64,000 nucleotides of DNA from Eledone cirrhosa (taxonomy: Eukaryota). The notes beneath the pieces are model-generated. The model was not told the origin of the DNA, ran no database searches, and saw nothing but the letters and a program-made list of their open reading frames with translations. The stretch covers positions 141,670,001 through 141,734,000 of the forward strand of contig OZ024740.1 of the NCBI GenBank assembly GCA_964016885.1, given 5' to 3'. Below, piece after piece: positions 54,870 to 56,670 of this stretch. Position 1 is the stretch's first letter. The number at the start of each line of letters is the position of its first letter. The position numbers were made by a program, and so were the translations under genes.

Positions 54870-55570
54870 GTACATAAAGTTGTATTTAACTGTGAAATGT
54901 TGTCCTTGTTTAAAGTGGAATGTTGAACCTTCTATCAGATTTATGCATATACCACAGTTGGGCCGTCCGCATTTTTTTTTACTGTGGGGTTCATTGTGGT
55001 GGTTGGTTGGATTTTGGCTTGTGTGAGGGTGTTTTTTTATGGATTTAGGTTGTCTTTTGCTCTTTATGATGTTGTGTGTTTGGAGGATTTTATTCATTCT
55101 TGGGTCTCTTTTTAGTAAAGGAATGTTCTAGAGGATGGTGTCGAATGCCTCATTATTGAGGGGGTTGTGTGTGGAGATGTATGGTAGAGTTTTCTGTTTC
55201 GGTTCATTCTTGGGTTTGGGGTGTCTGAGTTCCTGGATGTTGAGTTTTAGGGCACGTTGGAATCCATTGTTGATTAGGGATGGTGGGTAGTTTCTGCTGA
55301 TGAGTGTGTTCTTAATTATTCTGGTCGTGTGTAGCATGTGTATTTATCTGAAATTATTGTGCAGATCCTTTTGGCTAGGTTATAAGGAATTGCCATTTTG
55401 GTATGGCGAGGGTGGCACGAGTTAAATGGAAGGTATTGTTTGGAGTCTGTGGGTTTATAGTATATGTCTGTTTCTATTTTGTTGTTTGTTTTCTTGATGA
55501 GGCTGTCAAGGAAAGGGAGTTGTTCATGGCTGTATTCCATTGTAAATTGAATGTTTGTGTTGAGTTAATT
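54870..55570 (-). mobile_element. Penelope-like element RT thumb and linker (inverted segment)
   Basis: IQFTMEYSHEQLPFLD..TDIYYKPTDSKQYLPFNSCHPRHTK.AIPY..RIC; RNYP; LPYISTHNP; KCGRPNCGIC. Confidence 0.92.
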
Positions 55571-55573
55571 TAG

Positions 55574-56667
55574 AAAAAAAATGCGGAAGGTCCAACTGTG
55601 GTATATGCATAAATCTAATAGAAGGTTCAACATTCCACTTTAAACAAGGACAACATTTCACAGTTAAATACAACTTTACATGTGCATCTGAAAACCTAAT
55701 CTATGTTTTGACCTGCTCAGGTTGTCGAGAGAACTACACAGGAGAGACAAAAAACATCCTCCGACAACGTATGACCGTCCATAGATCACAAATCAAAATA
55801 CAGGAATACAGAAAGATTGCATTCAGTGAACATATCGCCAATTGTGCACCTAACCAACTACCAAATTTTCTCCATTTACAAATTCATAGACAACGCTTCT
55901 TTTATCCATCGTACTAATAAGGAAACGTACTTTATTAACAAATTCCAGCCTCTACTTAATGGACTAAACTTCGGACTAAATTAAAACTGGAACGAACAAT
56001 GAATCATAGTCCCAAATCCCTACGTTCTCTAAAGAGTTACCTCCCTGACACCCTACCTAATCCTTTTTCTTATATAAATGAATTACCCCCTCTCCTCTTT
56101 TTCTCCTACCCGACCACCATGAATTACCTCCCTCCTGCATATTAATTCTCTAAAAAGGGAAAACACATCCAATCCCAGACGGAGATTTGCCTCCATCAGG
56201 GATCAACTTTTTTAAGCGATCGTACCACAATAACATTTTTGAACCGCCTGTCCTAAAAAAAACAATGCTTGTAAATATTATTCTTTCTTTCCCATTACCT
56301 TATCATGTTCCACATCACCCTTTTTTTGACTTCAAAAATTTTGTTTGTAAATAATATTATTCTTTCTTTCTCATTTCAATAACATGTTCAACATCACCTT
56401 AACCAATACAAATTCCGCCTTTTTTACTCTCCCACTCACATAATTTGATAATGCATAAAATGCTGAAACCGGTAATTGATAATCATTAAATAAATATATT
56501 AATAAATCAATAAATCAATGCTATTGTTAATTAATAAATAAATTAACTAATACCTTAACACTTAACATAAAGTTTAAATATTTTGTTTTAAACATTTTCT
56601 AACGCAGAAAATAGAGAAAACAATAAGCAAAAAAAAATATTTTTCTTCCTAATAATCGTTTTTTTCT

Positions 56668-56670
<3 letters not shown>
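55574..56670 (+). mobile_element. Penelope-like (Neptune-type) GIY-YIG endonuclease plus 3' UTR/pLTR ending at (TA)n
   Basis: KCGRSNCGIC..FTCASENLIYVLTCSGCRENYTGETKNILRQRMTVHRSQI..SEH (frameshifted C-terminus); HHR at 56441; AATAAA at 56489. Confidence 0.9.
56441..56478 (+). ncRNA. Minimal hammerhead, U3-A8 variant, in the PLE 3' region
   Basis: TAAT-TTGATAA-TGCAT-AAA-ATGCT-GAA-ACCGGT-A-ATTG. Confidence 0.8.

What the first reader, a model, noticed from the sequence alone, without database searches (positions are those of the whole stretch)
54870..56670. Coding anchor: Neptune-type Penelope remnant with 5' inversion, ~110-bp overlap, HHR and TA end
Seen: RT thumb and linker on minus (55570 to 54870) joined to Cys-rich linker, GIY-YIG, 3'UTR, HHR, AATAAA and (TA)n on plus. 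Segment 54871-54980 is duplicated in inverted form at 55574-55681. This is the same geometry as the short fold-backs at larger scale. Inference: elements of this kind supply the RT and endonuclease for the non-coding hairpin families.
Basis: partly seen in the sequence, partly recalled or inferred. Interest (0 to 1): 0.75.

Follow-up and report, generated by a model that had tools for sequence, protein, structure and literature searches.

The report
Broken Penelope-like retrotransposon with inverted head
This is a decayed, 5'-truncated copy of a Penelope-like retrotransposon lying against a TA microsatellite, whose first 700 bases are inverted, likely because reverse transcription was primed on both DNA strands at insertion; it is an ordinary member of a very abundant family in this genome.

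Summary
Window 54875-55573 (minus) encodes the RT C-terminus/thumb, linker and CX4CxxC motif of a Penelope-like element (PLE). Window 55574-56670 (plus) encodes the same CX4CxxC motif, a GIY-YIG nuclease and a 686-nt 3'UTR that ends on (TA)26. A 105-nt stretch is present in both arms (97% identical).

All 39 other scored copies in the genome are collinear, so the inversion is private to this copy. It is most likely a twin-priming-like product. A later deletion in a classical head-to-head PLE pair is a serious rival.

The "HHR" is real as a motif. It is a minimal, PLE-type hammerhead with the U3/A8 core variant at 56441-56478. It is conserved across three PLE families here, with compensatory changes in helix I. 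Rfam does not see it, and also misses a canonical-core minimal HHR in the same window. One multiplied family carries a broken core (GCAA).

(TA)n flanks recur at 14 of 17 3' ends examined.

"Neptune-type" fits the linker, but Neptune was not separated from Nematis. The link to non-coding hairpin families is plausible and already in print, but no shared 3' tail was found.

Verdict: new member of a known kind, modest interest.

The parts
54670..54712 (.). (AT)n microsatellite left of the older repeat X. It does not touch the PLE.
54713..54869 (.). Fragment of another, older repeat family (X). It is cut at ...CACATAGAATTT, where the inverted PLE arm begins. It is the upstream flank, not part of the PLE.
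   Evidence: 542 first-look candidates, 40 scored, 82-87% identity over 54787-54869; other X copies are ~400 bp long and flanked by (TA)n; the rest of X was not found right of the PLE.
54875..55573 (-). Inverted 5' segment: RT C-terminus/thumb, linker, CX4CxxC motif and the first residues before the GIY-YIG core (aa ~327-560 of relative P0001). It carries frameshifts and one in-frame stop.
   Evidence: 92-95% identical to collinear copies
54875..54979 (-). Left copy of the 105-nt overlap (inverted).
   Evidence: 3 differences between the arms, each private to one arm.
55574..55678 (+). Right copy of the 105-nt overlap. It is also the 5' truncation point of the forward segment.
55582..55608 (+). 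CX4CxxC zinc-finger-like linker motif (C GRSN C GI C).
   Evidence: motif definition from PMC8557442
55696..55984 (+). GIY-YIG endonuclease with CCHH (TCSGC..TVH..SEH). One frameshift near 55850-55890. Stop codon at 55982-55984.
55985..56670 (+). 3'UTR containing an internal ~79-nt direct repeat (56258-56319 / 56334-56398). It ends in ...TTTCTCCC.
56441..56478 (+). Minimal hammerhead-like motif. Helix I is UAAU/AUUG. The core is UUGAUAA (U3/A8). Then come U, helix II GCAU-AAA-AUGC, U, GAAA, the palindrome CCGG and UA. The predicted cleavage site is after 56474.
56671..56722 (.). (TA)26 abutting the 3' end of the element; the likely target microsatellite.

Best explanation
Window 54875-56670 is a dead, 5'-truncated copy of a (TA)n-inserting Penelope-like retroelement (C-terminal GIY-YIG, CX4CxxC linker) whose first 699 bp are inverted with a 105-bp overlap, likely made in one insertion event by a second, internally primed reverse transcription on the opposite strand.

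Shown:
- The element is collinear in its relatives.
- The family is very abundant and its copies are 5'-truncated at many different points.
- Its 3' end abuts (TA)n.
- Its 3'UTR carries a conserved min-hammerhead-like module.

Inferred steps:
1. The nuclease nicked the bottom strand in the (TA)n array at 56671.
2. cDNA was made from the RNA 3' end back to the A-run before KKCGR (55574).
3. A second 3'-OH on the top strand, inside the older repeat X (~54870), primed on the same or a second RNA inside the endonuclease-coding region.
4. This second cDNA was extended to the RT thumb (55573).
5. The two cDNA ends were joined.
6. The target DNA between the two nicks (the rest of X) was lost.

The hammerhead-like module is predicted to fold as a dimer-dependent type-I HHR. 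Whether it cleaves is untested.
For: Identity as a PLE:
- RT thumb, linker, CX4CxxC and GIY-YIG map onto the window.
- Collinear relatives have RVT_1 followed by GIY-YIG, a DKG motif and CCHH.
- The RT query gave 20,516 first-look candidates in the genome.

The inversion is private to this copy:
- 39 of 39 other scored loci are collinear. Their two matching pieces overlap by ~105 bp in genome coordinates.
- Five of them were followed 900 bp further into the RT.

Retroelement behaviour:
- 11 of those 39 loci are 5'-truncated at different points within the 700-bp interval.
- At least 3 of the 39 have an inverted 3' tail directly upstream.
- In a younger sister family, neighbouring copies were head-to-head 7 times, tandem 2 times and tail-to-tail 0 times. 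I counted these by eye among the 150 scored hits.
- One such pair has 1.39-kb arms at 96% identity.

Geometry: the element-3'-most end of the inverted arm faces the upstream flank, and its 5'-most end is joined to the forward arm's 5' end. This is the twin-priming layout, not a snap-back.

Published mechanism: a purified PLE protein nicks and extends both target strands and starts reverse transcription inside the RNA (PMC11167929, main text read).

(TA)n targeting:
- 14 of 17 3' ends examined run into at least 4 TA units. Two of these ends are one segmental duplicate.
- 5'-truncated copies also abut (TA)n on their 5' side (L013/L024 and L022).

HHR module:
- 11 of 12 family copies keep the whole motif.
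- It is homologous across families A, B and C.
- 80.8% of pair cells are paired, against 36-48% with slid partners. Helix I pairs change AU/UA/CG.
- Chance expectation is 0.03 hits per window.
Against: - No target-site duplication can be defined. The upstream junction lies in another repeat, not in (TA)n.
- The 105-nt arms share no private substitution, so sequence cannot show that they came from one template.
- The two arms differ somewhat in identity to relatives: 92-95% for the inverted arm against 90-92% for the forward coding part.
- No sequencing-run contig bridges either junction.
- The upstream junction has at most a few bases of ambiguous microhomology and a 2-nt gap.
- HHR: the Rfam models give nothing.
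- HHR: the subfamily A2 and family B each have one unpaired helix I position.
- HHR: part of the helix II column covariation is a 1-nt register shift of the same GCA/UGC sequence.
- HHR: 14 of 14 family B copies have GCAA in place of GAAA.
Confidence: 0.55

Rival explanations
1. This was a classical PLE head-to-head pair, in which both cDNAs started at the RNA 3' end, one on each target strand. A later genomic deletion then removed the inverted copy's nuclease C-terminus, 3'UTR and (TA)n together with part of repeat X.
For: - Head-to-head pairs in which both arms keep their 3' ends are the usual form here (7 pairs; L076; at least 3 of 39).
- They are also the usual form in the literature (PMC8557442).
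- The upstream junction lies at non-TA sequence in both partners, as a random deletion would give.
- X looks older than the PLE and is itself cut.
Against: It needs an extra event of at least 1.2 kb. No trace of the lost tail was found left of 54875.
Confidence: 0.3
2. Two independent insertions of the same family landed back to back, and one was later truncated.
For: The family is extremely abundant (4201 first-look candidates) and prefers the same (TA)n landing pads. The arms share no private substitution.
Against: - It requires exact abutment of two 5' ends with no filler, plus a 3' truncation of one copy.
- Head-to-head pairing is strongly non-random in the sister family: 7 head-to-head against 0 tail-to-tail.
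Confidence: 0.08
3. Assembly artefact: a collapsed or mis-joined fold-back in a repeat-rich region.
For: PLE inverted structures are known to upset assemblies (PMC8557442). No contig of the four runs laid spans the junctions.
Against: The arms differ at 3 of 105 positions. Both flanks are unique, with 0 differences in the runs. The contig is chromosome-sized.
Confidence: 0.04
4. The conserved 3'UTR module is not a working ribozyme. It is a protein-recognition or reverse-transcription-start structure that only descends from, or resembles, a hammerhead.
For: - 14 of 14 copies of family B, which has open frames up to 770 aa and 92-99% EN-end identity among copies, carry GCAA instead of GAAA. They still keep helices I and II and CCGG-UA.
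- In vitro, HHR mutants did not affect PLE insertion (PMC11167929).
Against: - Families A and C keep every core position in the U3/A8 form. This form is a known covariant in Schistosoma PLE min-HHRs (PMC4209133).
- Family C is a perfect fit to the descriptor.
Confidence: 0.35

Closest known systems
Neptune (and Nematis) clade EN+ Penelope-like elements (Arkhipova 2006 as cited in Craig et al. 2021, PMC8557442)
   Same: - The GIY-YIG nuclease is C-terminal to the RT.
- CCHH lies inside the nuclease.
- A CX2-5CxxC linker is present (here CX4CxxC).
- Insertion is biased to (TA)n.
- Copies are 5'-truncated.
- An inverted 5'-truncated partner occurs.
- An HHR lies in the terminal non-coding region.
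   Different: - Clade placement by phylogeny was not done.
- In this copy the inverted arm lacks its own 3' end and overlaps the forward arm by only 105 nt.
Minimal hammerhead ribozymes of metazoan PLEs, including the U3-A8 core covariant of Schistosoma Cercyon elements (Cervera and de la Pena 2014, PMC4209133)
   Same: - Type-I layout.
- Short helix I (4 bp).
- An extra nucleotide between A9 and helix II.
- G10.1-C11.1 is kept.
- Helix III is reduced to A-U plus a palindromic loop (CCGG), which implies action as a dimer.
- U3/A8 replaces C3/G8.
   Different: - Helix II is only 4 bp.
- An extra U lies before G12 in family A.
- A sister family has a broken core (GCAA).
- No cleavage data exist.
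L1 5' inversions by twin priming (Ostertag and Kazazian 2001; recalled, not read here)
   Same: The 5' segment is inverted and its element-3'-most end lies at the upstream flank. The 5' ends of two cDNAs are joined, with a duplication at the inversion point.
   Different: - It belongs to a different retroelement class.
- The 105-nt overlap is large.
- No TSD is visible.
- The target DNA between the nicks appears to have been deleted.
Poseidon PAc from Anolis, in vitro (Frangieh et al. 2024, PMC11167929)
   Same: - Both target strands are nicked and extended.
- AT-rich targets are preferred.
- Reverse transcription starts inside the RNA.
- The HHR is dispensable for insertion in vitro.
   Different: It belongs to a different clade without the CX2-5CxxC linker. 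Its HHR sits at the pLTR-ORF junction, whereas here it lies ~196 nt from the 3' end.
Animal non-LTR retrozymes as non-autonomous PLE derivatives (Li, Clavereau, Pollet 2026 preprint, 10.64898/2026.07.22.740005)
   Same: Non-coding HHR-bearing repeats co-occur with PLEs. The window holds two such repeats (61550-61999 and 6973-7205).
   Different: - In Xenopus the retrozymes share sequence with PLE pLTRs.
- Here no sequence similarity to PLE tails was found in the three families sampled.
- The repeats here are dispersed and folded back, not tandem.

Membership tests
EN+ Penelope-like elements (canonical, C-terminal EN) | Reverse transcriptase followed by a C-terminal GIY-YIG endonuclease in one reading frame | tested here: met
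   Relatives: RVT_1 at 251-437 and GIY-YIG at 677-766 in P0002. The window copy keeps the RT C-terminus and the GIY-YIG domain.
EN+ Penelope-like elements (canonical, C-terminal EN) | CCHH motif within the GIY-YIG domain | tested here: met
   Read directly..LTCSGC..MTVH..FSEH... Definition from PMC8557442.
EN+ Penelope-like elements (canonical, C-terminal EN) | N-terminal DKG motif | tested here: met
   KEADKGS is present in P0001 and P0002. This part is absent from the truncated window copy.
EN+ Penelope-like elements (canonical, C-terminal EN) | 5' truncation and tandem or inverted complex insertions | tested here: met
Neptune clade | CX2-5CxxC linker upstream of GIY-YIG (shared with Nematis and Naiad; absent from Penelope/Poseidon) | tested here: met
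   CGRSNCGIC at 55582-55608 and CGRPNCGIC on the inverted arm
Neptune clade | (TA)n insertion bias | tested here: met
   14 of 17 3' ends run into TA units, and the 5' ends of L013/L024 and L022 abut (TA)n.
Neptune clade | RT/EN phylogenetic placement inside Neptune rather than Nematis | not tested
The one supplement text I searched gave only rows of its Naiad sheet for the three cephalopod genus names I asked for; I did not search it for Neptune or Nematis.
Hammerhead ribozyme (type I, minimal PLE form) | Core CUGANGA ... GAAA, or its U3/A8 covariant, with UH at the cleavage site | tested here: met
   UUGAUAA ... GAAA ... UA at 56445-56474. The U3-A8 covariant is documented in PMC4209133.
Hammerhead ribozyme (type I, minimal PLE form) | Helices I and II supported by compensatory change | tested here: inconclusive
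   Helix I pairs (columns 8/44 and 9/43) change AU/UA/CG among families, and 80.8% of cells are paired against 36-48% when slid. However, there are only about four independent lineages, the subfamily A2 and family B each break one pair, and helix II covariation is largely a register shift.
Hammerhead ribozyme (type I, minimal PLE form) | Match to the Rfam hammerhead covariance models | tested here: not met
   The same models also miss the canonical-core minimal motif at 61755-61804, so this test has little power for minimal forms.
Hammerhead ribozyme (type I, minimal PLE form) | Self-cleavage | not testable with these tools
   Needs in vitro transcription of dimeric constructs.
Twin-priming-type 5' inversion | Inverted 5' segment with its element-3' end at the upstream flank and a deletion or duplication at the inversion point | tested here: met
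Twin-priming-type 5' inversion | Single event, flanked by one target-site duplication | tested here: inconclusive
   No TSD is definable because the flanks are repeat X and (TA)n. The arms share no private changes.

The most novel reading that the evidence does not exclude
In this genome every (TA)n-targeting PLE lineage carries the same U3/A8 hammerhead-shaped module ~150-200 nt from its 3' end. One lineage multiplied with a catalytically broken core. The module's selected job would then be recruiting the RT/EN or setting the start of reverse transcription, not self-cleavage.

In the same system, (TA)n primers anneal to internal UA-rich patches of the RNA. This would be the rule that makes the abundant fold-back copies. 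The copy studied here would be the rarer case of internal priming at a non-TA site.
Probability: 0.3. Interest if true: 0.55.

Novelty: new member of a known kind. Interest (0 to 1): 0.3.

Why it matters
By itself this is one dead copy of a common repeat, useful mainly for annotation. It should be masked as a PLE, and its fold-back should not be read as a gene or regulatory hairpin.

The family context is more useful. The genome holds old and very young (TA)n-targeting PLE lineages, plus non-coding HHR-bearing repeats, side by side. This makes it a good natural data set for two open questions about PLEs:
- What the hammerhead is for.
- How the inverted and fold-back insertion forms arise.

Tried and rejected
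- Rfam at gathering score and at E<=10 or E<=1 on the window, on 11 relatives and on a family C motif gave no hammerhead. A control on a canonical-core minimal motif was also negative. Rfam is therefore uninformative here.
- The search of earlier findings by place returned nothing.
- The left flank is not a piece of the PLE's own tail. It is another repeat, X, and X has no HHR-like motif on either strand in 3 copies.
- The shared-private-substitution test on the two 105-nt arms was uninformative, because the segment is too conserved. The age comparison of the arms was not decisive.
- The hairpin-family unit has no blastn similarity to the tails of PLE families A, B or C.
- The one locus where that unit is fused in the same orientation to a truncated PLE nuclease (L036) is a single case. 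Other copies of that PLE family do not carry the unit, so I do not count it as a partner.
- The canonical min-HHR in L049 (2350-2380) lies ~700 bp beyond the PLE's own 3' end, in another element.
- Sequencing runs: no RNA holder was listed. The four runs laid are short contigs, and none bridges the junctions.
- Craig et al. supplement: a search of the one file held as text for three cephalopod genus names returned only rows of its Naiad sheet, so it gave no help on the clade.
- 'twin priming' plus 'Penelope' in the paper library gave 3 papers. None is about PLE inversions by title or abstract start.
- The relaxed descriptor dropped the strict hit through a tie-handling flaw, so its count (2 hits) is a lower bound.
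Full report
**What is there**

- `repeat finder` gives one long inverted pair, 54875-54979 against 55574-55678. It is 105 nt long, 97% complementary, with 594 nt between the arms.
- I mapped the 664-aa open frame of a collinear relative (P0001) onto the window with tblastn.
- Residues ~327-560 (RT C-terminus/thumb, linker, KKCGRPNCGIC, ..KYNF) lie on the minus strand from 55564 to 54876.
- Residues 528-661 (KCGRSNCGIC, GIY-YIG, C-terminus) lie on the plus strand from 55579 to 55972.
- The copy is dead. The inverted arm has a frameshift near 55316-55343, an in-frame stop near 55133 and frame changes near 55030-54990. The forward arm has a frameshift near 55850-55890.
- Pfam calls GIY-YIG just above its cut-off: 22.7 against 22.6 bits, E 1.2e-4.
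- The 3'UTR (55985-56670) ends in ...TTTCTCCC and runs straight into (TA)26 at 56671-56722.

**Family context**

The window lies at G000:C1:141670001-141734000 in a 3.0-Gb genome.
- A DNA search with 54870-56670 gave 4201 first-look candidates, of which 40 were scored.
- In all 39 scored loci other than the window, the two halves of the query match opposite strands and overlap by ~105 bp in genome coordinates. Those copies therefore hold the 105 bp once and are collinear: RT thumb, linker, nuclease, 3'UTR.
- Five of them were followed 900 bp further upstream into the RT (..YLDD..). Four share 2.8-3.06 kb.
- Eleven of the 39 are 5'-truncated at different points inside the 700-bp interval. At least three have an inverted 3' tail directly upstream.
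- An RT query found 20,516 first-look candidates.
- Longer frames from relatives (P0001 664 aa, P0002 770 aa) show the DKG motif, RVT_1, the CX4CxxC linker and GIY-YIG with CCHH, in that order.
- By the criteria quoted in Craig et al. 2021 (PMC8557442, passages), the C-terminal EN, CCHH and CX2-5CxxC exclude Naiad/Chlamys, Hydra and Penelope/Poseidon. Neptune and Nematis remain. I could not separate these two.

**(TA)n ends**

- Of 17 3' ends with a visible flank, 14 run into at least four TA units. The run starts directly after ..TCTCCC, or after an extra TGTTTTCA in one subfamily. Three ends show only TAT(T/A).
- L002 and L005 are one segmental duplicate, so the independent count is 13 of 16.
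- 5'-truncated copies also abut (TA)n on their 5' side (L013/L024, L022).
- Families B and C likewise end on (TA)n.
- This fits target preference rather than a tail carried by the element.

**The upstream flank**

- The 162 bp between the left (AT)n (54670-54712) and the inverted arm are not PLE sequence.
- They belong to another repeat, X, with 542 first-look candidates and 82-87% identity over 54787-54869. Other X copies are ~400 bp long and sit between (TA)n arrays.
- Here X is cut at ...CACATAGAATTT, and its remainder is not found to the right of the PLE.
- So the inverted arm starts at a non-TA site inside an older repeat. No target-site duplication can be defined.

**How the inversion arose**

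- The element-3'-most base of the inverted arm (inside the nuclease N-terminus) faces the upstream flank. Its 5'-most base (RT thumb) is joined to the 5' end of the forward arm. The two arms overlap by 105 nt.
- This is the layout of twin priming as described for L1 (recalled, not read here). It is not that of a snap-back, which would make both arms cover the same interval.
- A purified PLE protein nicks and extends both target strands and starts reverse transcription inside the RNA (PMC11167929, main text). A second, internally primed cDNA is therefore mechanistically reasonable.
- In the younger family C, neighbouring copies are head-to-head 7 times, tandem 2 times and tail-to-tail 0 times among 150 scored hits (counted by eye). 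One pair has 1.39-kb arms at 96% identity.
- Those classical pairs keep both 3' ends. The window copy does not.

The main rival is that it once did, and that a deletion of at least 1.2 kb later removed the inverted tail together with part of X. I could not decide between the two.
- The 105-nt arms differ at three positions, each private to one arm, and share no private change.
- Identities to relatives are 92-95% for the inverted arm and 90-92% for the forward coding part.
- No contig of four public runs bridges the junctions.

I put single-event internal priming at about 0.55, later deletion at 0.3, two independent insertions at 0.08 and artefact at 0.04.

**The hammerhead**

Rfam finds none:
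- in the window at gathering score;
- at E<=10 around the element;
- at E<=1 in 11 relatives;
- at E<=10 in a 141-nt stretch around the family C motif.

The same models also miss a canonical-core minimal motif at 61755-61804 in a 181-nt search. The negative result therefore says little about minimal forms.

Read directly, 56441-56478 is UAAU-UUGAUAA-U-GCAU-AAA-AUGC-U-GAAA-CCGG-UA-AUUG.
- This is a type-I hammerhead with a 4-bp helix I and a 4-bp helix II.
- Helix III is reduced to A-U plus a palindromic tetraloop.
- The core carries U3/A8 in place of C3/G8.
- Cervera and de la Pena 2014 (PMC4209133, parts 1-2 of the text read) describe just such minimal, dimer-dependent HHRs in metazoan PLE terminal repeats. 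Their description includes the extra nucleotide after A9, the palindromic helix III and a U3-A8 covariant in Schistosoma.

Supporting tests:
- A descriptor written to that description hits only this site on both strands of the window. It gave 0.03 hits per block-shuffled window and 0 in 5000 shuffles of the 3'UTR. I wrote it after seeing the motif.
- The motif is intact in 11 of 12 family copies taken by BLAST. It is the best-kept part of a 3'UTR that is only 73% identical in a sister subfamily.
- Homologous modules occur in family B (P0002 family) and family C (a young family; 16 of 150 scored hits have open frames of 775 aa).
- Family C reads CCUU-UUGAAAA-GCAG-AAGAA-CUGC-GAAA-CCGG-UA-AAGG, a perfect fit.
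- On an alignment of 30 distinct sequences, 80.8% of pair cells are paired, against 36-48% with slid partners. Helix I pairs change among AU, UA and CG.

Caveats:
- There are only about four independent lineages.
- The subfamily A2 and family B each break one helix I pair.
- Most of the column covariation in helix II is a one-base register shift of the same GCA/UGC.
- All 14 family B copies read GCAA where GAAA should be. That this position (A13) is essential is from my own knowledge.
- Family B nevertheless multiplied. Its copies are 92-99% identical at the nuclease end and have frames up to 770 aa.
- Together with the in vitro finding that HHR mutants do not affect insertion, this keeps open that the module is kept for recognition or initiation rather than cleavage.

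**The hairpin families**

- The fold-back at 61550-61691 / 61720-61861 (142-nt arms) belongs to a non-coding family with 711 first-look candidates.
- Its forward copy really runs on to 61999, next to (TA)n.
- It carries AUAC-CUGAUGA-..-GAAA-UGAUCA-UA-GUAU, a canonical-core minimal HHR, about 175 nt from its 3' end.
- Copies are 5'-truncated at many points.
- In 3 of 5 inverted arms examined, the outer end lies at an internal UUAUUUAUAAU patch that merges into (TA)n. In the other 2 it lies at the true 3' end.
- That pattern looks like (TA)n primers annealing to an internal UA-rich patch.
- The geometry resembles the finding, with an inverted arm that starts internally. The site rule differs.
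- The unit shares no blastn similarity with the tails of PLE families A, B or C, apart from TA repeats.
- One fusion to a truncated PLE nuclease (L036) is a single case.
- A second short HHR-like insert lies between two (TA)n arrays at 6973-7205.
- Dependence of such repeats on PLEs is a published hypothesis (10.64898/2026.07.22.740005, abstract and section 14). My data agree in architecture but do not identify a partner.

**Verdict**

Its clade is probably Neptune or Nematis. Its inversion is private and has two live explanations. The side observations on the hammerhead module and on TA-patch priming are more interesting than the copy itself.

Noticed in passing
window 61550-61999: Fold-back copy of a non-coding ~460-bp-plus family (711 first-look candidates). 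It has a canonical-core minimal hammerhead motif at 61755-61804 and a (TA)n 3' flank. The inverted arm starts at an internal UA-rich patch fused to (TA)n, as in 3 of 5 inverted arms examined.
   Followed up: partly
window 6973-7205: A ~235-bp insert between two (TA)n arrays with an HHR-like motif at 7105-7151: CUGAUGA, a long helix II, GAAA, the palindrome UAUAUA, then UA.
   Followed up: no
window 54713-54869: Fragment of an older ~400-bp repeat family X (542 first-look candidates) that also sits between (TA)n arrays elsewhere. No HHR-like motif was found in 3 copies.
   Followed up: partly
L065-L077 (e.g. L076:1385-5630): A very young PLE family C with 14,422 first-look candidates. 16 of 150 scored hits have open frames of 775 aa, and many hits have identical scores. 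Its copies form classical head-to-head pairs with long inverted arms. It looks recently active.
   Followed up: partly
L077:1108-2334 and 2247-4571: In one family C copy a 409-aa open frame overlaps the start of the 775-aa RT/EN frame in another phase. The first Met of the 775-aa frame is at residue 163. This could be a two-frame organisation or just a frameshift; I did not examine it.
   Followed up: no
L028, L051-L063: PLE family B: all 14 copies have GCAA in place of the hammerhead GAAA box while keeping the helices and CCGG-UA. Their 3'UTRs hold expanded CA/TA microsatellites.
   Followed up: partly
L036:1041-1832: A 5'-truncated copy of the hairpin-family unit is fused, in the same orientation, to a PLE nuclease cut at ..RNRMTIHRE. 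It is either a nested insertion or a template-switch chimera.
   Followed up: partly
L049:2350-2380: A textbook minimal HHR (7-bp helix I, CUGAUGA, 5-bp helix II, GAAA, CUAG, UC) lies in an unidentified element ~700 bp beyond a PLE 3' end.
   Followed up: no
window 61340-61520; 13410-14118; 63473-64000: Further fold-backs. One is a ~45-nt-arm hairpin between (TA)n arrays. The others are inverted repeats of 179 nt (98%) and 236 nt (99%, running off the window end). They were not examined.
   Followed up: no
G000:C1:153.34-153.38 Mb (L002, L005, L015, L017, L018): Three copies of the family lie within 40 kb, and two of them are 99.3% identical over 900 bp upstream. This is a local segmental duplication, not independent insertions.
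   Followed up: no
run X5 (organism B): A contig from a second, differently labelled organism carries a collinear copy of this family at 95% likeness or more. The family is therefore shared with a relative.
   Followed up: no
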